A stretch of 64,000 nucleotides of DNA from a virus: the IMG/VR virus record IMGVR_UViG_3300047509_000088, positions 31,371-95,370 of that record; one strand, given 5' to 3'. The position numbers and the translations under genes were made by a program. Under the pieces are notes generated by a model. The model was not told the DNA's origin. It was given only the letters and a program-made list of their open reading frames with translations, and ran no database searches. This document shows, one piece after another, positions 20,616 to 62,154 of the stretch; position 1 is the first letter of the stretch, and every line of letters begins with the position of its first letter.

Positions 20616-20690
20616 TGGTACCGGGGGCGGGACTCGAACCCGCACCTCCGCATCTTAAGTGCGGCCCTCTGCCAATTGGGGCACCCCGGC
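20616..20690 (-). tRNA. tRNA-Leu(TAA), short variable loop, CCA encoded
   Basis: GCCGGGG acceptor, CCGCA-CTTAAGA-TGCGG anticodon arm, GGTTCGAGTCC T-loop, ACCA end; 75 nt. Confidence 0.9.
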
Positions 20691-47446: not shown

Positions 47447-50400
47447 ATGGCCAGCATAGCCCTACGCGGTACGCCGACCTCAACCCTCAACTCGACGACC
47501 GACTCAACCATTATCAATGTCCCGACCGGCGTCCTGGACGGCGATCTCCTGATCATGGCCGCCACCACCCAGGCCAACAACGGCGGTACCCCGCCAACCG
47601 TCGCCACTCCGACTGGCTGGACCAAGTTCGGTCAGGTGGCTGGGAACTCGGCCAGCTTCTCGAACTATAGCTTGGCGCTGTTCTGGCGGATCGCGGCCAG
47701 CGAGCCGGCCAGCTATACGATCACGGACGGGACGCCGGCCGTTCACCGCCTGGACGTGTCGATGATGGCCTTCTCGGGGACGGACGGCACCGCGCCAATT
47801 GCCTTGACGGCGGTGTCGACGCATGGCAACTCGGACAGCAGCACGACCAACCTCGTTTCGGCCGATCTGGGCACGACGCCGCGTGACGGTTGCTGGCATG
47901 TGATCTGGTGGGTTGATACCGGCAACATGGCCGGGGCGCCCACTGGATATACGCGAGACCTTTCCCTGGGCGGTCCGACCAAGGCGGTCGACCATAAGCT
48001 GATCTCGCCGGCCGGTTCAACTGGCGCGCAGACCGTAGTCAATACCGGGAGCGGCTCCTGGGCCACCTGGACGCTGGCCATCACGCCGGCATTCGTGGCT
48101 CGGACGGCAGCCGATACGATCGTAGCTCAGTCCGACTCGGCGGCCAGGCATACGATGGCGTTTGTTCGGACCGGCGCCGACACAATGGTCAGCCTGACTG
48201 ATCTGGCTAACCGGCTGCTGAAGTTTGTTCGGACGGGCGTGGATACGTTGGTCAGTCAATCCGATCTGGCGGTTAGGTCGGTGATGGCATTGGTCCGGAC
48301 GTCGGCCGATATCCTCGTTAGTCAATCCGACTTAGCGGTTAGGGCGGTTATGGCATTTGTTCGGACAGCGGTTGATCCGAACGCGATCCTGGAGCGGGGC
48401 TCTCCGACCAGCGCCACCGGCACCAACTCGGTCACGATCAACAAGCCGACCGGGGTGGTGGATGGCGATCTGATGATCATGGCGATCACGAGCTATTCCA
48501 TCCTTTCGGGCGGGACTACGGCAGTCCCGAACACGCCGGCCGGCTGGACCTCTCAGGGCGAGGCGCATACCTCCAGCGGCAGCGCCATCAACACGGACGT
48601 AGCTATCTATACGAGGGTGGCTTCGTCGGAACCGAGCAGTTATGCCGTCAGCTCCTCGAACTCGGGCACGCCCACCATGCACGGGAGCGTCATCGCGTTT
48701 GTCGTCCCTAATACTGGAGCGCCGTTCGATCTCAACAAGGGATTCCTGTTCGAGATCGGCAACACGGGGAATGTGACGTGCGATGATCTGGGCACGACGT
48801 CGATCGGCGGCTGCTGGCACGTGATCTGGTTCTCGGCGGCCAACGGCATCTCGGGCGGGGTTCCGGCTGGATACATCCAGGATTTGGCGTTTGCTTCGAC
48901 CGACGAGATGATCTGCCACAAGATCATCAGCCCAGCCGGCGCCACCGGCCACCAGACATCCGCCAGCACGGGGACGTACGTGGCCTGGACGTGCGCACTG
49001 ACGATGGCGTCGGCTCCGATCACCGACCTGGCTAACCGGCTATTGACCAAGCTGCGGACCGGGGTTGATACGATCGTTAGTCAGTCTGATGCAGCGGTCA
49101 GGCCGGTTATGGCGTTTGTCCGGGCGAGCGTCGATACCCTTGCGAGCCAGACCGATTCGGCAGCCAGGTCGGTTATGGCGTTTGTCCGTACGGCGCCCGA
49201 TCAAATCGGGGAGGTGATTGAGTCGGCCGTCAGGTCGGTTATGGCGTTTGTTCGGACGTCTTCCGATACGACAGTCAGTCAATCTGATCTGACGAACAGA
49301 GGATTGATGGCGTTTGTCCGGATAGGGGCCGATTCAACCCAGACCATAACGGACCCTGCGATTAGGCCGGCCATGACCTTTGTTCGGGCGGCTCCCGACC
49401 AAATTGGAGAGATCCTTGAATCTGCGGTCAGGTCGATTATGACCTTTGTTCGGACGGGGGTCGATTCAATCCTCGAAATAACCGGCTTCGCGAATCGTCT
49501 GACTGCGGCTAGGCGGGCCGGCGGCGATCTGATAGCCGAAGTGACGGACGTCGCGATCAGGGTCATAACCGGAGTAGCCGTCATAGCAGCGGACACGATC
49601 CTGGAGGTGACGGATCAAGCCGCCAGGTTGATGGCTTTAGGTAGATCGGTTATTGACAGTTTGTCGGTTGATGAGATAGTAGCGAGGTTGCTGGGGCTGG
49701 GGGTTGGCGCAGTCGACCTGATCGGAGAGATTAATGAGTCTGCGGTCAGGCCGGCTATAACCTTTGCTCGGTCCGCGCCTGATCAGATCGGAGAGGTTGT
49801 TGACTCTGCGGTTAGACGGCTGATGCAGTTTGTTCGGACGGCGCCAGACCAGGCGCCGGAGATCCTTGAGTCTGCGGCTAGATCGACGATGACCTTTGCT
49901 AGGTCGGTATCCGACTCAACCGGAGTAACCGATCTCGCCGTGAGGTTGGAGGGGATTGTCCGGACGGCGCCTGATCAGATCGGAGAGATCCTTGAGTCGG
50001 CGGTCAGGCCGGTTATGACCTTTGTTCGGACGGCCGGTGATCTGCTGGGCGCGATCTTCGATTCAGCCGGCGGACCCGGCCAGGTGGTCCGGATAGCAAT
50101 TGACTCAACCGCTGAGGTGACTGACTCTGCGGTCAGATCGATCATGCAGTTTGCTCGGGCGGCATCCGACCAGACTGGAGTAAGTGACCTGGTAGGTAGA
50201 CTGATTGGTCAGATAAGGGTGGGATCTGATTCGGTGACGGAGGTTGCTGATTCTGCTGTTAGGCGGGCGATGGTCTTCGTCAGATCGGCGGCGGATTCAT
50301 CTGGGGTAAGCGATCTTGTCATTAGGCTGGTTGCGGTTAGAAGGTCAATTGGCGACCCTATCCCCGGAATAACCGACGCAGCCGTGAGATATGGGACGGC

Positions 50401-51976
50401 GCTTGCGCTGACGGCGGTTGATTCGGTTGGTGAGATTGTGGAGTCGGCTCTACGAGGGATCGGGATAGTCAGGCTGGGGTTGGATTCGGTACGGGAGATC
50501 ATTGATTCGGCGGTACGGGGGCTGATCGCTCGGGTTAGGGCGGCGGTCGACTCGGCTGGTGTGGGCGACTCGGCGGGACGGCTGGTCAACCTGCCCCGAG
50601 TCGCCCTGGACCAGGTTGTCGACGTAGTCGACCTGGCAGTAAGACGGCCCATGACGTTCATCCGATCAGCGGTCGATAACCCGGTGGTGATCACGGATCT
50701 CGCGATCAAGCTGGTGGCGGATCTCCGGACGGCGGCGGATTCGCTCGGACCAATTGCGGACTCAGCCGGTAGATCGGCGATGCACCTGATCAGACAGGCC
50801 GGTGACTTGCTCGCGGCGATCTTGGAGGCGGTTGATTCCCCGGGCAAGCTGTACCGGTTCGCGGTCGACTCAATCGCCGCAATCCCAGACAATGCCTCGC
50901 GGTCAGCGATGGCCTTCATTAGGTCGGCGGGTGATTCGGCGCTGGTTGCGGATGCGGTTGACCGAACCCTCCGGATTACGGTTGGCGCAGTTGATCTGGT
51001 AGTAGAAGTTCGTGACCTCGCGGCCAGACAAGCGATGTCCTTTAATCGAATTGCAGGTGACGTCTCGGGTGTGACGGATTTGGCAGTAAGACGGGCGATG
51101 ACCCTTGTCCGGGCCGGAGCAGACCAAACCGGAGTAACTGATTTCGCTATGAGGCTGGTCGGACTGGGGCGGTCGGGCGTGGATTCGATCGTCAACGCAG
51201 TTGACTTGGCGGTAAGAGGTTCAATGGTCCTCGGTCGAATCGCTAGCGATTTGATGTTGGGTATCCCTGATGTGGCTGGCAAGCTCAGTCGTCTCTACCG
51301 GACTGCGGTTGATTCGATGCCGGAGATCCTTGCCTCGGCGGTTCGGTCCGCGATGGCCCTGCTCCGATCTGCCGCCGATGCCTTTCAGGTCAACGACATC
51401 GCTACGCGAACGGTTACCCTGGGTCGGGCAGCCCTGGAGGCGGTTCCGAGCCCAGGAGATACCGCATATCGCGCCCAGATGGCATTTGCCCGGGTCGCGG
51501 TCGACACCATGGCCAGCCTGACCGACCTGGCGCACCAGGCCCAGGGCAGGTATCGGGTCGCGGCCGATCAGGTGGTCGAGGTTGCGGAGTCTGCGGTTCG
51601 GCCGGTTATGCAGTTCGTTCGGGCGGCCGTGGATCGAATCGACGTAGTCGATCTGGCCAAGCGAATCGAGATGTCGTTCTATCGGACAGCCGGCGATGCT
51701 ATGCACACGATCGGTGATCTCGCGCACTCAGTTCGTGGTGCTTTCCGGTTCGCGGGAGATCTGATTGTTGAGGTAGTCGATCTGGCCGAAAGAAGTCCGA
51801 TGGCCTTTGTCCGAGTGGCCGGTGATCTGCTCGCCCTGATCCGGGACGAGTCTTACCGGGTGGGGACGATTGGCGCCTACCTGGTCAAGGCGGGCCAGCC
51901 ATTTACGCGATGGGTTGCCAAGGCGGTGCTAGGATGGCGGGCAGGCCCGACCGATACGGGCGGAGATCACGACTAG
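47447..51976 (+). CDS. Large repetitive tail fiber / virion protein
   Basis: Two homologous ~200-aa domains (PTGV.DGDL..TP.GWT..ASEP.SY..CWHVIW) plus dozens of 21-23-aa repeats (AVR..M.FVR.A.D). Confidence 0.8.
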   Translation: MASIALRGTPTSTLNSTTDSTIINVPTGVLDGDLLIMAATTQANNGGTPPTVATPTGWTKFGQVAGNSASFSNYSLALFWRIAASEPASYTITDGTPAVHRLDVSMMAFSGTDGTAPIALTAVSTHGNSDSSTTNLVSADLGTTPRDGCWHVIWWVDTGNMAGAPTGYTRDLSLGGPTKAVDHKLISPAGSTGAQTVVNTGSGSWATWTLAITPAFVARTAADTIVAQSDSAARHTMAFVRTGADTMVSLTDLANRLLKFVRTGVDTLVSQSDLAVRSVMALVRTSADILVSQSDLAVRAVMAFVRTAVDPNAILERGSPTSATGTNSVTINKPTGVVDGDLMIMAITSYSILSGGTTAVPNTPAGWTSQGEAHTSSGSAINTDVAIYTRVASSEPSSYAVSSSNSGTPTMHGSVIAFVVPNTGAPFDLNKGFLFEIGNTGNVTCDDLGTTSIGGCWHVIWFSAANGISGGVPAGYIQDLAFASTDEMICHKIISPAGATGHQTSASTGTYVAWTCALTMASAPITDLANRLLTKLRTGVDTIVSQSDAAVRPVMAFVRASVDTLASQTDSAARSVMAFVRTAPDQIGEVIESAVRSVMAFVRTSSDTTVSQSDLTNRGLMAFVRIGADSTQTITDPAIRPAMTFVRAAPDQIGEILESAVRSIMTFVRTGVDSILEITGFANRLTAARRAGGDLIAEVTDVAIRVITGVAVIAADTILEVTDQAARLMALGRSVIDSLSVDEIVARLLGLGVGAVDLIGEINESAVRPAITFARSAPDQIGEVVDSAVRRLMQFVRTAPDQAPEILESAARSTMTFARSVSDSTGVTDLAVRLEGIVRTAPDQIGEILESAVRPVMTFVRTAGDLLGAIFDSAGGPGQVVRIAIDSTAEVTDSAVRSIMQFARAASDQTGVSDLVGRLIGQIRVGSDSVTEVADSAVRRAMVFVRSAADSSGVSDLVIRLVAVRRSIGDPIPGITDAAVRYGTALALTAVDSVGEIVESALRGIGIVRLGLDSVREIIDSAVRGLIARVRAAVDSAGVGDSAGRLVNLPRVALDQVVDVVDLAVRRPMTFIRSAVDNPVVITDLAIKLVADLRTAADSLGPIADSAGRSAMHLIRQAGDLLAAILEAVDSPGKLYRFAVDSIAAIPDNASRSAMAFIRSAGDSALVADAVDRTLRITVGAVDLVVEVRDLAARQAMSFNRIAGDVSGVTDLAVRRAMTLVRAGADQTGVTDFAMRLVGLGRSGVDSIVNAVDLAVRGSMVLGRIASDLMLGIPDVAGKLSRLYRTAVDSMPEILASAVRSAMALLRSAADAFQVNDIATRTVTLGRAALEAVPSPGDTAYRAQMAFARVAVDTMASLTDLAHQAQGRYRVAADQVVEVAESAVRPVMQFVRAAVDRIDVVDLAKRIEMSFYRTAGDAMHTIGDLAHSVRGAFRFAGDLIVEVVDLAERSPMAFVRVAGDLLALIRDESYRVGTIGAYLVKAGQPFTRWVAKAVLGWRAGPTDTGGDHD

Positions 51977-51989
51977 GTTGAGCTGAGAA

Positions 51990-52205
51990 ATGGACATCGT
52001 ACGAACCGCCAGCGACTCAATCGGTCCCGTACTGGACCGGCCGATGAAATACGTCTCGATATTGTTCACGGTCGGGCGTCTGGGGTTGGCCTGGCAGTCG
52101 TCTGAGCCAACGGTTGCCTTTTCTGTTGGCCGTCCGGTGTTTAGTTGGTCTGCTTCCGAGGTGATGGTGGGCTGGCGATCAGGTCAGACACAGAGAGGAG
52201 GTTGA
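51990..52205 (+). CDS. Small protein resembling the C-terminus of the preceding repeat protein
   Basis: VRTASDSIG..D; (V/A)G.P...W.. repeats. Confidence 0.55.
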   Translation: MDIVRTASDSIGPVLDRPMKYVSILFTVGRLGLAWQSSEPTVAFSVGRPVFSWSASEVMVGWRSGQTQRGG

Positions 52206-52206
52206 G

Positions 52207-52518
52207 TTGGCAGAGATTAGTTCGCTCTCTACAGAGTACGTCTTGGTCCCAGTGTCCTTCGTGGACCCGGTAACTGGGGCGCAAATAGATCCGACTGGCG
52301 ATACGATCGCGATGGCCTTCACTCAAGGGTCGGCTGATCCGGCGGGTCCGGACTGGGTCTCGGCGACCTGGCGGTCTGGCGGTCCACCGTATGTCGCACA
52401 GACACTTGTCGGTCCCAACGGGAAGGCGCTGGCGAAGGGAGGGTGGAAAGTGTGGACCAAGATCACATCGAATCCAGAATTACCGGTGCTTCGCGCCGGC
52501 TATCTCAAGGTGACCTGA
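52207..52518 (+). CDS. BppU-like small structural protein
   Basis: SD GGAGG; IDPTG..W..WTKIT..PE.PV..AG.LKV. Confidence 0.6.
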   Translation: MAEISSLSTEYVLVPVSFVDPVTGAQIDPTGDTIAMAFTQGSADPAGPDWVSATWRSGGPPYVAQTLVGPNGKALAKGGWKVWTKITSNPELPVLRAGYLKVT

Positions 52519-52614
52519 CGCGAAAATTGGACACACGAAATTAATCGGTAAAATCTGTCCGACTGATCCGGGCCCGAAATTGAGCAAACAGTTTTGGGTG
52601 GTAGAATCTGCCTG

Positions 52615-52944
52615 ATGCCACTGAAACGGGCTCCGATGTGCAGGGTCGGAGGCTGCCCCAACAGACAGCCCTGTCCTCGACCTGGTCATGATCTACGTCG
52701 CCAACGGTCAATTGATTCGGCCGAGTGGAATCGTCTGTTAAAGCTCCGAGCTTGGATCTTGCGTGCCAGGGAATATCAGCGCAAGTATCCCGCATGCGCC
52801 GACTGTCTCTCCAACGGCAAGATAGTCCTCGGTGTCGACGTTCACCACCTTGTGCGCCGCGAGTTTCCCTGGGAAGCAACCGATGATGAGCTGATGAACC
52901 TCTGCAAGCCACATCACTCGACCAGAACCGGCAGGGGAGAGTAG
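52615..52944 (+). CDS. HNH endonuclease, packaging-associated type
   Basis: CRVGGC, W.KLR, PACADC, DVHH, NLCKPHHSTRT. Confidence 0.85.
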   Translation: MPLKRAPMCRVGGCPNRQPCPRPGHDLRRQRSIDSAEWNRLLKLRAWILRAREYQRKYPACADCLSNGKIVLGVDVHHLVRREFPWEATDDELMNLCKPHHSTRTGRGE

Positions 52945-52984
52945 CGATCCCAACGGTATCGATCCGACCAAACAATCGTTCTAG

Positions 52985-53013
52985 TTGTGCTGTACGCTTA
53001 GACCTGATATGCT
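52985..53013 (+). promoter_or_regulatory. Promoter of the tRNA, with TGTACGC box
   Basis: TTGTGC TGTACGCTTAGACCTGA TATGCT. Confidence 0.7.
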
Positions 53014-53033
53014 CTTGATCGCAGGTGGGTGAC

Positions 53034-53108
53034 GGGCCAATAGCTCAGCCTGGACAGAGCAGTCGACTGCTAATCGACAGGTCGGGAGTTCAAATCTCCC
53101 TTGGCCCA
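53034..53108 (+). tRNA. tRNA with GCT (Ser) anticodon on a short-variable-loop, non-Ser body
   Basis: GGGCCAA/TTGGCCC acceptor, GCTC-AGCCTGGACA-GAGC D arm, GTCGA-CTGCTAA-TCGAC, 5-nt variable loop, GTTCAAATC, A73, no CCA. Confidence 0.9.
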
Positions 53109-53681
53109 TCTGCACTCAAAGGTTCATAATTCGAGAAGAGGTCGGCACGGAGTAGCACCTCCCCGCAGGCGCAGGGCGTCAGCCGGAGACCCGAAGAGAA
53201 ATCTAGGGGTGCGTGTCGACCTCAACCTTTTCTCCCAACGGTCAGATTGTCAAATCGCCCAACGGGTAGACCCCAACGGTCAGATTGTCAATTTGCCCAA
53301 CGGCTTGACTATCACAAAGCCTAACGGTCCATAGGCATGCTTTCTGATACCCAAGATCATCAGCTCCCCGGGCAGCCGGAACCCTCTGGTGAGGATTCCG
53401 TCTGAGCCACTAGGTCGCGATGCCTACCCGAGACATCCCGCCCGAGTTCACCACCTGGTTGCATTTTGGTCCCCAGCGCTACCAGGAAGACTGGGCTGAT
53501 ACCAGGGCCCGCCGAGACCCCATGACCAAATCGGATGATAGCATCATCAACGGTCGTATCATTTATTCGCTAGGTCGAGTGCCAACACGGCCAAGTTCGA
53601 ATGGGCGGGCTCCCGTTAGGTGATTCCGGGGGGCCCGTCCATTTTTCCCAAGGGGGCCCGCCGGTCGTCAGGCCCGCCGGT

Positions 53682-53755
53682 CAAACGGCCCGCCGCGTGC
53701 CAAAGCGCCAAACGGCCCGCCGCGTGCCAAAGCGCCAAACGGCCCGCCGCGTGCC
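53682..53755. repeat. 27-bp tandem repeat (CAAACGGCCCGCCGCGTGCCAAAGCGC), about 2.7 copies
   Basis: Direct reading. Confidence 0.9.
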
Positions 53756-53942
53756 GTCCGGCTCGGCCGGTCGTGTCTATGGTGCTGTCTACGAACATTC
53801 ATACGATTTGTATTCAGCGCTGTCTACGAACACTTGTCCGTAGACAGCAATTCGCATTGCTGTCTATGCGTCTATGGGGTATGAGGCACGCGCAGAGTCC
53901 GGTACGCACACGTACCGGGCCCGAGTTCGTGTACGAACCATC

Positions 53943-54078
53943 CGTCAGGCTCGGCCGGTCGTCAGGCTCGGCCGGTCGTCAGGCTCGGCCGGTCGTCAGG
54001 CTCGGCCGGTCGTCAGGCTCGGCCGGTCGTCAGGCTCGGCCGGTCGTCAGGTTCGGCCGATCGTCAGGTTCGGCCGAT
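53943..54078. repeat. 17-bp tandem repeat (CGTCAGGCTCGGCCGGT), 8 copies
   Basis: 6 exact plus 2 variant (CGTCAGGTTCGGCCGAT) copies, no spacers. Confidence 0.95.
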
Positions 54079-54377
54079 CTGATCTCAGCCGGGCCCTGTA
54101 GCGCCACACGAGCCTCAGCCTTGCCTCAAAACCGCTTAGGTGGCTCCGGATACTCCCGCGCCTTTTTCGAGCCGTACGGGCCGTTAGACGGACTCGCCTA
54201 AGCCTCAGCCTCGGCGCAGATTGCCTTACCCCTACTCCGACACTTCGGGCCCGGTTTGGCGTCAGGTAGGGCATTAGGTGGCTCGACAGGAGTAGCCTCG
54301 GATGAGTTTGTCCGGCGCCGGATCGTCCGACTACGACTCGACAGGTGGTAGTCAAATGCTGACTACCACCTAGACAC

Positions 54378-54421
54378 AAAAAAAGACTCGACAGACGAGA
54401 TGATCCGTCTGTCGAGTCTTT
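54378..54421 (-). terminator. Intrinsic terminator closing the leftward early-like region
   Basis: AAAGACTCGACAGACG..CGTCTGTCGAGTC followed by T7 on the minus strand. Confidence 0.8.
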
Positions 54422-54992
54422 ACTCTGGCGTACCGTGCCGATACCAGTGGGCGTAATGCATTCGACAGAAACCATGTCCGTAATGCTTGCGTCCACATTC
54501 ATCGATGGAACAATTATGCTGAGGGGAGGAGGCGGTTTCCTTCCGTAGTTGAGCATGGAGTTTGGAATGTTCGCTAGGTGTTATCCATCGTAGATGAGTA
54601 GGGTTGACGCACCCATGATCGAAACATAGATGGTGCGGTACGGTACCTACTGGGGGTTTGCCGATCATGTAGTGGTAGATAGCAGAGTGAAGTTTGAAGC
54701 CCTCGGATTGAGCATATCCTTGGGAATTGTGACTTTTGCTATCCCAATGCCAACATCCGTTTGTGTCAGTAGTGATCTTGCCGAGCCATCGTTCGATGAG
54801 CGCCAGGCGCTGCGGCCGATATTCTCGGTAATGAGGGCCGCACATTCCAAATGCAGCGTAGCCACGTCTGTCACATTCGTCGATTATGCACTTGGGCTTA
54901 GCCTGTCGGTATTGGCGTCCATAGTGAAGGACACATAGCCCAATCGCGTGTATCGGTCGTCCGCAATCGCTGATCAAACATACAGGGTTCAT
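54420..54992 (-). CDS. HNH endonuclease with Cx4C..CxxHY Zn-finger repeats
   Basis: NGCWHW, PHHLCFDHGCVNPTHL, three CxIxxC..HY repeats. Confidence 0.9.
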   Translation of the reverse strand: MNPVCLISDCGRPIHAIGLCVLHYGRQYRQAKPKCIIDECDRRGYAAFGMCGPHYREYRPQRLALIERWLGKITTDTNGCWHWDSKSHNSQGYAQSEGFKLHSAIYHYMIGKPPVGTVPHHLCFDHGCVNPTHLRWITPSEHSKLHAQLRKETASSPQHNCSIDECGRKHYGHGFCRMHYAHWYRHGTPE

Positions 54993-55056
54993 CTAGGTTC
55001 TATTTTACCCTCAAAATGCAAAAGGTCCGGCCGGACATCACTGTCCGGCCGGTCCT

Positions 55057-61444: not shown

Positions 61445-62081
61445 ACGCCAAAAGGTCCGGCGCGGCATCACTGCCGCGCCGGAACATTCGACAAGCTATA
61501 GTCGCGTTGACTAGCTTTCGCTTGTCTCTTAATCGGTAGGTTCAGGTTTGATCTCTGCTTCTACCGTTCGTCAAGTTCAACCGTACTTCCTACTTGTCTG
61601 CCTCAGTGTCTTGTCCTCACTCAACAGTCAGGGTATTCCGCTCACGCACGGCCGCATGACTTACCTAGCTTCGGATGACTACCTTGGGTGGTTGCTTTCC
61701 TGGTAGTGCCGATGAGCCTATGACGTCCGGGTGTTTGTTAAGGTTCTCCGCTCTTCCGTCCCCGCCGCTTGTCTGACTGTCCATAGTAAACCATGCTTAC
61801 AGGCATCGTGCCTATCTAATATTGGGTGACTTTTACAGGTATTTGTGCAACGCCCGTTCGATCTGCTGGCGCGCGTACGCGTACGGGTGTCGTCCTGGCC
61901 GTCGGATTGGCTGGACGTCCAGATAGACGCTCGGCCGGTTGTCGAGCCGCTAGGGCCGCCGTAGGGCGCATACGCGCCATCGTGCACTCGCAACGGCGAG
62001 CACACGCTAGCTCGGAGGAGGGTACGGGCGATCCGGGATCTTGGGTTGGATCTTGCCAGGATCGATCCCGGATCGTTTGCG

Positions 62082-62154
62082 TGGTGCCGAGCGGATTCGA
62101 ACCGCTATACTCCAGCTTGGCGGGCTGGCGCTTTGTCCCTTAAGCTACGGCACC
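62082..62154 (-). tRNA. tRNA-like gene with GCC (Gly) anticodon and atypical identity elements
   Basis: GGTGCCG/CGGCACC acceptor, CCAGC-CCGCCAA-GCTGG (C33), GGTTCGAATCC T-loop, A73. Confidence 0.75.

What the first reader, a model, noticed from the sequence alone, without database searches (positions are those of the whole stretch)
53034..53108. tRNA with Ser anticodon (GCU) but Arg-type identity elements: potential mistranslating or decoy tRNA
Seen: a perfect cloverleaf with its own promoter, anticodon GCT, a 5-nt variable loop, A73 and D-loop AGCCTGGACA (A at position 20). Established: bacterial SerRS depends on the long variable arm (usually with G73), whereas ArgRS reads A20, C35, U/G36 and A/G73, all present here. 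The acceptor also resembles tRNA-Ile. Inference: it may be charged with Arg and insert Arg at AGC/AGU codons (host proteome sabotage), or act as an uncharged decoy for anticodon nucleases. Wholesale reassignment looks unlikely, since the helicase Walker A GSPG uses AGC where Ser fits.
Basis: partly seen in the sequence, partly recalled or inferred. Interest (0 to 1): 0.75.

Follow-up and report, generated by a model that had tools for sequence, protein, structure and literature searches.

The report
Phage tRNA: arginine marks, serine anticodon
A soil phage carries an intact transfer RNA whose anticodon reads the serine codons AGC/AGU but whose recognition marks fit the arginine-charging enzyme, so if it is made it would most likely put arginine where serine is encoded; whether that is useful to the phage or an accident could not be settled.

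Summary
Window 53034-53108 (+) is a perfect 75-nt cloverleaf (Rfam tRNA 69.8 bits) with anticodon GCU, a 5-nt variable loop, A20 and A73. It lies in a 95-kb soil phage whose likely host is an actinomycete.

It cannot be a normal tRNA-Ser: it has no long arm and A73 instead of G73. It carries the full published bacterial ArgRS set: A20, C35, U36, A73, G2-C71. A20 occurs in 13 of 13 tRNA-Arg in my reference set.

The body is a mosaic. The acceptor stem and first 19 nt are identical to actinomycete tRNA-Ile(GAU), and the D-arm is the tRNA-Arg type. The anticodon is one base from UCU (Arg) or GAU (Ile).

AGC/AGU are not reassigned. They encode two invariant serines in the phage's own portal, and no gene module avoids them. 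"Host sabotage" is therefore unsupported, because mistranslation would hit phage proteins first.

No ortholog, antisense partner, transposase or phage synthetase was found. The phage's other two tRNAs are also odd: a type-I tRNA-Leu-like UAA and a GCC tRNA with C33/A73/A20.

This scan noted arginine-type GCU/ACU tRNAs before on other mobile DNA. I found 35 such loci in IMG/VR.

Verdict: real, probably arginine-accepting, function unproven.

The parts
53034..53108 (+). 75-nt class-I tRNA gene, anticodon GCU, no encoded CCA
   Evidence: ARAGORN; Rfam RF00005 69.8 bits; zero differences in a depth-18 Logan contig
53069..53071 (+). anticodon G34 C35 U36 (reads AGC/AGU); C35 and U36 are ArgRS determinants
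   Evidence: identity table in PMC9976931
53052..53056 (+). G18 G19 A20 C20a A21: D-loop end with A20, the main bacterial ArgRS determinant
   Evidence: A20 in 13/13 reference tRNA-Arg, and GGA(C/U)A in 11/13. Among class-I non-Arg tRNAs, A20 occurs only in 2 Asp and 1 phage Phe
53058..53071 (+). perfect 14-nt palindrome AGCAGTCGACTGCT spanning the D-stem 3' strand, the anticodon stem 5' strand and the anticodon. It allows an alternative hairpin that hides the anticodon
   Evidence: self hit on the minus strand; alternative fold -33.1 vs cloverleaf -30.1 kcal/mol; of the 11 anticodons tested, GCU favours the alternative most; UCU, CCU, ACU, GAU, GGU and CAU keep the cloverleaf as the best fold
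52594..52944 (+). HNH homing-endonuclease gene, same strand, ends 90 nt before the tRNA; likely start ATG 52615
   Evidence: PHROG phrog_144 E 4.2e-12; ORF
52580..52607 (+). sigma-70-like promoter site (TTGAGC-16-TAGAAT with TG). It would start a leaderless HNH transcript that may run on into the tRNA
   Evidence: consensus match only; co-transcription is inferred
   Evidence: read from the sequence; below the threshold of the scan
54420..54992 (-). second HNH endonuclease gene flanking the gene-poor tRNA region
   Evidence: Pfam HNH_3 1.6e-7; phrog_826 2.6e-19

Best explanation
It is an intact phage tRNA that the host's arginyl-tRNA synthetase, not SerRS, would recognise.

Shown:
- The gene and its cloverleaf are real.
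- The anticodon GCU pairs with AGC/AGU.
- The full bacterial ArgRS determinant set is present (A20, C35, U36, A73, G2-C71).
- The SerRS determinants are absent.
- The phage itself reads AGC/AGU as serine.

Inferred:
- It is transcribed, possibly behind the upstream HNH gene, then processed and given CCA by host enzymes.
- It is charged with arginine and delivers it at AGC/AGU in competition with the host's tRNA-Ser(GCU). That would give low-level Ser-to-Arg substitution in proteins made during infection.

Origin: the anticodon is one substitution from a cognate tRNA on either of two routes.
- U34 to G from a codon-compensating tRNA-Arg(UCU).
- A35 to C, plus U20 to A, from a captured host tRNA-Ile(GAU).

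Whether the mistranslation is selected or merely tolerated is open.
For: - Structure and sequence.
- The review table of bacterial identity sets lists A/G73, G2-C71, C3-G70, A20, C35 and U/G36 for Arg, and calls A20 the main E. coli ArgRS determinant (PMC9976931). The tRNA has all but C3-G70.
- In two complete actinomycete tRNA sets plus a Streptomyces phage, A20 is present in 13/13 tRNA-Arg and is nearly absent from other class-I tRNAs.
- The exact 19-nt D-arm occurs in cellular genomes mostly in tRNA-Arg: 61 of 79 ARAGORN calls, 37 of them UCU.
- No other synthetase's published set is matched. Ser needs the long arm. Ile needs A35, U20 and G16. Thr needs G35. Gly needs C36 and U73.
- The phage uses AGA+AGG for 25% of Arg codons, against 3.6% and 10.7% in sampled genes of two genomes of the likely host phylum. 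An ancestral tRNA-Arg(UCU) would therefore make sense beside the phage's tRNA(UAA).
- Arg-type D-arm class-I tRNAs with GCU or ACU recur in IMG/VR: 35 loci, 28 confirmed by ARAGORN, and 53-68 bits for the 12 scored against Rfam.
Against: - No aminoacylation, expression or conservation data exist. No ortholog was found in any collection.
- With the anticodon masked, the body is closer overall to tRNA-Ile (0.76), Met/Ile2 (0.74) and Lys (0.72) than to tRNA-Arg (0.68).
- A20 is not proof of arginine ancestry. The phage's own tRNA(GCC) has it, and in IMG/VR the exact 21-nt D-arm sits in four tRNA-Pro and one tRNA-Arg.
- The phage encodes invariant portal serines with AGC/AGU and shows no AGY avoidance, so Arg insertion would cost the phage.
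- Nearest-neighbour folding prefers a non-cloverleaf fold by 3 kcal/mol, more than for any of the ten other anticodons tested. Such predictions also miss the cloverleaf for genuine tRNAs.
- ArgRS rules were established in E. coli, T. thermophilus and plants, not in the unknown host.
Confidence: 0.45

Rival explanations
1. The RNA is inert in translation. Either it is a neutral or mildly harmful relic of a tRNA-Arg(UCU) or tRNA-Ile(GAU) gene that is poorly folded or poorly charged, or it has a non-translational job. Such a job could be a decoy for a host tRNA-cutting defence nuclease, or an RNase P/Z processing signal at the end of the HNH transcript.
For: - The anticodon is one base from two cognate anticodons.
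- GCU creates a 14-nt palindrome, and the predicted best fold hides the anticodon. Cloverleaf probability is 0.4% with GCU against 24-30% with UCU, CCU, ACU, GAU or CAU.
- No ortholog shows that the state is conserved.
- The phage does not avoid AGY, as expected if the tRNA does not decode.
- Phage tRNAs that counter anticodon nucleases are documented in actinophages (PMC10264068).
Against: - Every stem pair and every conserved tertiary nucleotide is intact, and it scores highest of the phage's tRNAs. That is unusual for a decaying gene.
- A tRNA with A20, C35 and U36 would be charged by ArgRS whether or not that is 'intended'.
- No nuclease target is known.
- 2D energy models routinely miss the cloverleaf of genuine tRNAs (reference Arg and Ile).
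Confidence: 0.3
2. It is a type-I (short-arm) tRNA-Ser charged by the host SerRS. The precedent would be the type-I tRNA-Leu that Streptomyces LeuRS accepts.
For: - Actinomycetes do use a short-arm tRNA-Leu(CAA) (PMC6614811). Homologs occur in 20 of 95 genomes of one order.
- This phage carries a tRNA(UAA) of that kind.
- G1-C72 and G2-C71 fit tRNA-Ser.
Against: [quoted passage not shown]
- All 10 tRNA-Ser in the reference set (8 from the two actinomycete genomes, 2 from the Streptomyces phage) are 86-93 nt with G73.
- No short-arm tRNA-Ser was seen in those genomes.
Confidence: 0.08
3. It keeps enough isoleucine identity to be charged by IleRS, and would place Ile at AGC/AGU.
For: - The acceptor stem, A73 and the first 19 nt are identical to tRNA-Ile(GAU) of an actinomycete order.
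- It has A73, C4-G69, U12-A23, C29-G41, G34, U36, A37 and A38, which is 8 of the 12 listed Ile determinants.
- Its masked identity is highest to tRNA-Ile.
Against: - It lacks A35, a strong anticodon determinant that IleRS must use to reject tRNA-Thr, tRNA-Asn and tRNA-Ser.
- It also lacks U20/U21 and G16.
Confidence: 0.07
4. The G at position 34 (or the C at 35) is an assembly or sequencing error, and the real gene is an ordinary tRNA-Arg(UCU) or tRNA-Ile(GAU).
For: It is a metagenome-assembled record, and a single base separates it from a cognate anticodon.
Against: - An independent assembler's contig at word depth 18 is identical over 51500-53711.
- A tRNA-Ile reading would also need A20 to be an error.
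Confidence: 0.03

Closest known systems
Bacterial and phage tRNA-Arg(UCU), the AGA reader often carried by phages of high-GC hosts
   Same: Class-I size. The D-arm AGCUCAGCCUGGACAGAGC with A20 is found mostly in tRNA-Arg. The anticodon loop CU-NCU-AA, C35, U36, A37 and A38 match. A purine discriminator fits too: A73 is allowed for Arg.
   Different: Position 34 is G, not U, so it pairs with AGC/AGU (Ser) instead of AGA/AGG. The acceptor stem GGGCCAA is the tRNA-Ile type, not the GCGCC/GCCCC type of the actinomycete tRNA-Arg sampled.
Actinomycete tRNA-Ile(GAU)
   Same: Identical acceptor stem, A73 and first 19 nt. It shares G34, U36, A37, A38, C4-G69, U12-A23 and C29-G41.
   Different: C35 instead of A35. 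A20-C20a instead of U20-U20a. A different anticodon stem. The two identity-relevant changes are exactly those that create ArgRS determinants.
tRNAProX / tRNAProA with ProRSx of Streptomyces and Kitasatospora (natural mistranslating tRNAs; PMC10404621, review PMC11415595)
   Same: Actinomycete setting. A tRNA whose anticodon belongs to one amino acid while its identity elements belong to another.
   Different: Those tRNAs come with a dedicated synthetase and have been shown to mistranslate. Here no ArgRS-type or class-IIa (Ser/Thr/Pro/Gly-type) synthetase gene is in the phage, nothing has been tested, and the pair would be Ser codon/Arg rather than Ala, Thr or Asn codon/Pro. Neither paper mentions an Arg-type case.
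Arg-type GCU/ACU tRNAs on prophages and small transposons noted earlier in this scan (e1-1577399, e1-6022958, e1-4565356, e1-5059377)
   Same: The same combination: Arg-type D-loop, class-I body and an anticodon for AGY, on mobile DNA. I confirmed independently that such tRNAs recur in IMG/VR.
   Different: No sequence relative of this tRNA is among them. No antisense partner RNA and no transposase lie beside it. It sits between two HNH endonuclease genes instead.
Phage tRNAs that evade host anticodon nucleases (PMC10264068)
   Same: It is a phage-encoded tRNA in an actinophage-like genome, and its sister tRNA(GCC) has an unusual anticodon loop (C33).
   Different: Those tRNAs keep their cognate identity and change loop bases around the anticodon. 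Here the anticodon and the identity disagree.

Membership tests
tRNA (Rfam RF00005) | Cloverleaf with conserved tertiary nucleotides, scoring above the gathering score of 29 bits | tested here: met
   69.8 bits, full-length match 1-71; ARAGORN cloverleaf
Bacterial tRNA-Arg (ArgRS substrate) | A20 in the D-loop | tested here: met
   A at 53054 after G18 G19; determinant per PMC9976931
Bacterial tRNA-Arg (ArgRS substrate) | C35 and U/G36 | tested here: met
   C 53070, U 53071
Bacterial tRNA-Arg (ArgRS substrate) | A/G73, with minor acceptor pairs G2-C71 and C3-G70 | tested here: inconclusive
   A73 and G2-C71 are present; pair 3-70 is G-C, not C-G
Bacterial tRNA-Arg (ArgRS substrate) | Anticodon that reads an arginine codon (NCG or YCU) | tested here: not met
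   GCU pairs with AGC/AGU only
Bacterial tRNA-Arg (ArgRS substrate) | Charged with arginine by ArgRS | not testable with these tools
   Needs an aminoacylation assay
Bacterial tRNA-Ser | Long variable arm (class II) | tested here: not met
   5-nt variable loop and 75 nt total. All 10 reference tRNA-Ser are 86-93 nt
Bacterial tRNA-Ser | G73 discriminator | tested here: not met
   A73 here; 10/10 reference tRNA-Ser have G73
Bacterial tRNA-Ile | A35 (with G/k2C34 and U36), plus U20/U21 and G16 | tested here: not met
   C35, A20, A21 and C16
Bacterial tRNA-Ile | A73, C4-G69, U12-A23, C29-G41 | tested here: met
   All present. The acceptor is identical to actinomycete tRNA-Ile(GAU)
Natural mistranslating tRNA with partner synthetase (tRNAProX/ProRSx type) | A dedicated synthetase gene accompanies the tRNA | tested here: not met
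   No PF00750 or PF00587 match in the 95-kb record; only these two synthetase families were searched
Natural mistranslating tRNA with partner synthetase (tRNAProX/ProRSx type) | Demonstrated misincorporation | not testable with these tools
   Needs expression and mass spectrometry
Arg-type RCU tRNA cassettes of earlier scan notes | Antisense small RNA complementary to the anticodon arm, and/or a transposon setting | tested here: not met
   No minus-strand match longer than 13 nt anywhere in the genome except the internal palindrome. The neighbours are HNH genes and there is no transposase

The most novel reading that the evidence does not exclude
The phage deliberately keeps a tRNA that host ArgRS charges and that reads AGC/AGU. 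It would be one member of a recurring, undescribed class of arginine-bodied GCU/ACU tRNAs on phages and mobile elements. These would cause controlled Ser-to-Arg statistical mistranslation, for example to diversify or disable particular proteins, or as a toxin-like device. If it arose from a captured host tRNA-Ile(GAU), then the two changes U20 to A and A35 to C amount to a natural identity switch from Ile to Arg.
Probability: 0.2. Interest if true: 0.85.

Novelty: new variant of a known kind. Interest (0 to 1): 0.55.

Why it matters
Natural tRNAs whose anticodon and charging identity disagree are rare. They are the raw material of genetic-code change and of regulated mistranslation. An arginine-for-serine case has not turned up in the papers I could search.

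This tRNA is a clean, testable candidate: 75 nt, all ArgRS marks present, no SerRS marks. It sits in a phage whose whole small tRNA set departs from the textbook rules.

If charging by ArgRS is confirmed, it would show that phages can carry mistranslating tRNAs. Together with the 35 similar IMG/VR loci, it would define a new class. If it proves inert, it is an example of how one base change strands a phage tRNA gene.

Tried and rejected
Searches for relatives of the phage or the tRNA that found nothing useful:
- Megablast of 52000-55000 against the phage records and tblastn of the 1509-aa neighbour gave no match.
- The search for related loci with the 1509-aa protein and with the portal found no relatives in IMG/VR.
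- Five DNA patterns for orthologs of the tRNA returned only unrelated tRNAs or nothing. They were: the anticodon arm with a free anticodon, acceptor plus D-stem, D-loop plus T-arm, and the D-arm alone, all in IMG/VR, and one pattern in the JGI metagenomes.
- BLAST of the tRNA against 201 genomes of the likely host phylum and 95 genomes of one order gave only tRNA-Thr, tRNA-Ile and tRNA-Arg at 73-86% identity.
- Homologs of the neighbouring 103-aa protein exist (P0122-P0127, 56-86% identity). The distant loci that could be read carry no tRNA.

Sequencing runs:
- No RNA holder is listed.
- The second study's run X2 holds the phage at 99% or more on both flanks. Its cover of the tRNA itself is mixed with a bacterial tRNA-like contig and could not be resolved.

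Readings considered and rejected, or left ambiguous:
- Classing the isotype by overall similarity is ambiguous, so I rely on identity elements.
- Reassignment of AGY to Arg is rejected.
- AGY avoidance by module or gene: none seen.
- Antisense partner RNA: none found.
- ArgRS-type or class-IIa (Ser/Thr/Pro/Gly-type) synthetase gene in the phage: none found; other synthetase families were not searched.
- The literature searches found no described Arg-identity tRNA with a Ser anticodon.

tRNAscan-SE isotype models are not available here.

Full report
**What is there.** The window is bases 31371-95370 of a 95,370-bp IMG/VR virus record rated 92% complete. It has a terminase, an HK97-type portal, a protease and a capsid. 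Its portal's named relatives are prophage proteins of Streptomyces and Pseudonocardia at 47-52% identity. The likely host is therefore an actinomycete, and the sample is soil.

The record has only three tRNA genes. The one in question, 53034-53108 (+), is called tRNA-Ser(gct) by ARAGORN. It scores 69.8 bits against Rfam's tRNA model, the best of the three. All 21 stem pairs are Watson-Crick. The anticodon loop is CUGCUAA, with the anticodon at 53069-53071. The variable loop has 5 nt, the D-loop is AGCCUGGACA, the discriminator is A, and CCA is not encoded.

A contig built by a different assembler from run X1, at word depth 18, is identical across 51500-53711. The same phage is present at 99% or more in a second soil study. 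Only the 'own promoter' is weak: the consensus scan finds none directly upstream, and the best site lies before the neighbouring gene.

**Surroundings.** The tRNA lies in a 3.3-kb gene-poor stretch between the end of a 1509-aa repeat protein and a leftward block of small genes. It has these features:
- An HNH endonuclease gene (52594-52944, phrog_144) ends 90 nt upstream on the same strand. A promoter-like site at 52580-52607 would start a leaderless transcript at ATG 52615.
- A second HNH gene lies at 54420-54992 on the other strand.
- Downstream are CCAACGG-bearing 38-nt repeats, three 27-nt repeats and eight 17-nt repeats.
- There is no transposase.
- No sequence in the genome is antisense to the tRNA beyond a 13-nt chance match.
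- The record holds no ArgRS-type or class-IIa (Ser/Thr/Pro/Gly-type) synthetase gene.

**Which synthetase would take it.** I used the published identity sets (Giegé and Eriani 2023, PMC9976931).
[quoted passage not shown] This tRNA has neither.
- The bacterial arginine set is A20, C35, U/G36 and A/G73, with minor G2-C71 and C3-G70. This tRNA has all but C3-G70.
- The isoleucine set is A73, C4-G69, U12-A23, G16, U20, U21, C29-G41, G34, A35, U36, A37 and A38. This tRNA has eight of the twelve. It lacks A35, U20, U21 and G16.
- The listed sets for Thr, Gly, Cys, Met and Val do not fit either.

To see whether A20 means arginine in the likely host group, I extracted 89 of the 91 tRNAs of two actinomycete genomes and 26 tRNAs of a Streptomyces phage.
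- A20 is present in 13 of 13 tRNA-Arg.
- The ending GGA(C/U)A is present in 11 of those 13.
- Among other class-I tRNAs, A20 appears only in two tRNA-Asp and one phage tRNA-Phe.
- All ten tRNA-Ser are 86-93 nt long with G73.

ArgRS is thus the only enzyme whose known requirements are fully met. That it actually charges this tRNA is inference.

**Where it came from.** The body is a mosaic.
- D-arm: the exact 19-nt D-arm occurs in cellular genomes mainly in tRNA-Arg. That is 61 of 79 ARAGORN calls, 37 of them UCU, plus several intron-bearing archaeal UCU genes.
- Acceptor: GGGCCAA...UUGGCCC-A is the isoleucine type. In IMG/VR it accompanies CAU 18 times, GAU once and CUU once.
- 5' end: the acceptor stem, A73 and the first 19 nt are identical to tRNA-Ile(GAU) of one actinomycete order. 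Relative to the D-loop of that tRNA, this one differs only by U20 to A and U20a to C.
- Anticodon arm and T arm: these resemble actinomycete tRNA-Thr(CGU).
- Overall: with the anticodon masked, identity is 0.76 to Ile, 0.74 to Met/Ile2, 0.72 to Lys, 0.71 to Thr and 0.68 to Arg.
- In phages the exact 21-nt D-arm sits in four tRNA-Pro and one tRNA-Arg.

Ancestry is therefore unresolved. The anticodon is one change from UCU (Arg) at position 34, or one change from GAU (Ile) at position 35.

Codon use favours an arginine past. The phage uses AGA+AGG for 25% of its Arg codons and TTA+TTG for 16% of its Leu codons. Sampled genes of the two reference genomes use 3.6% and 10.7% AGA+AGG. A tRNA-Arg(UCU) beside the phage's tRNA(UAA) would be a textbook compensating pair.

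The isoleucine route would be more remarkable. Its two identity-relevant changes are exactly the ones that create ArgRS determinants.

**What it would do.** AGC/AGU are not reassigned. In an alignment with 120 homologs, two portal positions encoded by AGC and AGT are serine in 118 of 119 and 116 of 120 sequences. Arginine is not enriched at any AGY site of the portal or terminase. The helicase Walker A serine is also AGC.

AGY makes up 23% of the phage's serine codons, and 22-29% in every module, with no gene standing out. A tRNA that inserts arginine at AGY would therefore damage phage proteins, which are what the cell mostly makes during infection. It leaves low-level, tolerated or specially timed mistranslation, or no decoding at all.

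One observation bears on the last option. GCU completes a 14-nt palindrome at 53058-53071. ViennaRNA then prefers, by 3 kcal/mol, a fold that pairs the anticodon with the D-stem strand. With UCU, CCU, ACU, GAU, GGU or CAU the cloverleaf is the best fold. This is weak evidence, because the same program also misses the cloverleaf of genuine reference tRNAs.

**Context: the phage's other tRNAs.** The other two tRNAs are also irregular.
- tRNA(UAA), 20616-20690 (-): it is short-armed, with G1-U72, A73 and encoded CCA, and a leucine-type D-loop. It resembles a conserved 75-77-nt tRNA(CAA) that I found in 20 of 95 genomes of one actinomycete order, with compensatory stem changes. Such a type-I tRNA-Leu(CAA) is known and is leucylated in Streptomyces coelicolor (PMC6614811). 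This fits an actinomycete host. It also shows that a short arm alone does not disqualify a 'class-II' anticodon there.
- tRNA(GCC), 62081-62154 (-): it has C33 instead of U33, A73 instead of the bacterial U73, G2-C71/U3-A70 instead of C2-G71/G3-C70, and an A20 D-loop.

The GCU tRNA is thus not a lone oddity in an otherwise orthodox set.

**Recurrence elsewhere.** Earlier notes of this scan describe arginine-type GCU or ACU tRNAs on prophages and small transposons, some with an antisense partner. None is a sequence relative of this one, and the partner is absent here.

Independently, I ran one IMG/VR scan for an Arg-type D-arm (UGGAYAGAGC), the loop CU(A/G)CUAA and a short variable region. It returned 35 loci. 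ARAGORN confirms 24 ACU and 4 GCU tRNAs among them (20 distinct sequences), and the twelve scored against Rfam reach 53-68 bits. I could not count the cognate UCU/CCU background, so this shows recurrence, not selection. One further case, an Arg-type ACU tRNA, is in an Actinomycetota MAG (L049/L144).

Some claims rest on genomes flagged as unpublished:
- The L049/L144 case rests on G002.
- Single rows of the tallies rest on G087 and G093.
- Single rows of the tallies rest on G210, G211 and G214.

**Verdict.** The gene is real and intact.
- The best-supported mechanism is charging by host ArgRS and decoding of AGC/AGU (confidence 0.45).
- The main rival is a translationally inert relic or a non-translational RNA (0.3).
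- Serylation as a type-I tRNA-Ser (0.08), isoleucylation (0.07) and sequence error (0.03) are minor.

No paper I could search describes an arginine-identity tRNA with a serine anticodon. The closest published analogues are the tRNAProX family of Streptomyces. I class it as a new variant of a known kind and score interest at 0.55. A charging assay and one look at the orthologs in related phages would settle it.

Noticed in passing
window 20616-20690 (-): Phage tRNA with anticodon UAA but a 4-nt variable loop (type I). It has G1-U72, A73, encoded CCA, G37 and a leucine-type D-loop (A15, G18G19, A20a). It resembles the type-I tRNA-Leu(CAA) known from Streptomyces coelicolor (PMC6614811). A phage-borne UAA version seems not to be described.
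   Followed up: partly
L303-L314 (e.g. G057:C1:2055772-2055847, G012:C4:290657-290733): A 75-77-nt short-arm tRNA(CAA) is conserved, with compensatory anticodon-stem changes, in 20 of 95 genomes of one Actinomycetota order. In G057 it is the only CAA tRNA among 45. Three of the rows rest on genomes flagged unpublished (G210, G211, G214).
   Followed up: partly
window 62081-62154 (-): tRNA with anticodon GCC that breaks bacterial glycine rules. It has C33 instead of the near-universal U33, A73 instead of U73, G2-C71/U3-A70 instead of C2-G71/G3-C70, and an arginine-like D-loop AAGGGACA with A20.
   Followed up: partly
window 53058-53071: The GCU anticodon completes a perfect 14-nt palindrome, AGCAGTCGACTGCT, which contains GTCGAC. 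The predicted best RNA fold then sequesters the anticodon. Of the 11 anticodons tested, GCU favours this alternative fold most strongly.
   Followed up: yes
window 53234-53333, 53682-53762, 53943-54078: The gene-poor stretch after the tRNA holds three kinds of direct repeat: 38-nt units with CCAACGG motifs (3 copies), a 27-nt unit (3 copies) and a 17-nt unit CGTCAGGCTCGGCCGGT (8 copies). They could be iterons or a regulatory or origin region.
   Followed up: no
window 54343-54371 and 54382-54421: Two perfect hairpins (12-bp and 16-bp stems) around an A-run, between the repeats and the HNH_3 gene. They look like bidirectional terminators.
   Followed up: no
window 52594-52944 (+) and 54420-54992 (-): Two different HNH homing endonuclease genes bracket the tRNA region. 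The first has low GC3 and a promoter-like site placed for a leaderless start at ATG 52615.
   Followed up: partly
L179-L213 (IMG/VR): 35 viral loci carry class-I tRNAs with an arginine-type D-arm and anticodon ACU (24) or GCU (4). One sequence recurs in many contigs of one sample and has a decayed 3' acceptor strand. Others are perfect tRNA-Arg look-alikes with CCA.
   Followed up: partly
L049 / L144 (Actinomycetota MAG; genome G002, flagged unpublished): A chromosomal tRNA with a typical actinomycete tRNA-Arg body (acceptor GCGCCGG, the same D-arm) but anticodon ACU.
   Followed up: no
window 47447-51976 (+): A 1509-aa protein made of dozens of roughly 30-aa repeats (...SAVRxxMxFVRTxxD...). 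It has no Pfam hit, only a weak tape-measure PHROG hit, and no relatives in the phage collections.
   Followed up: no
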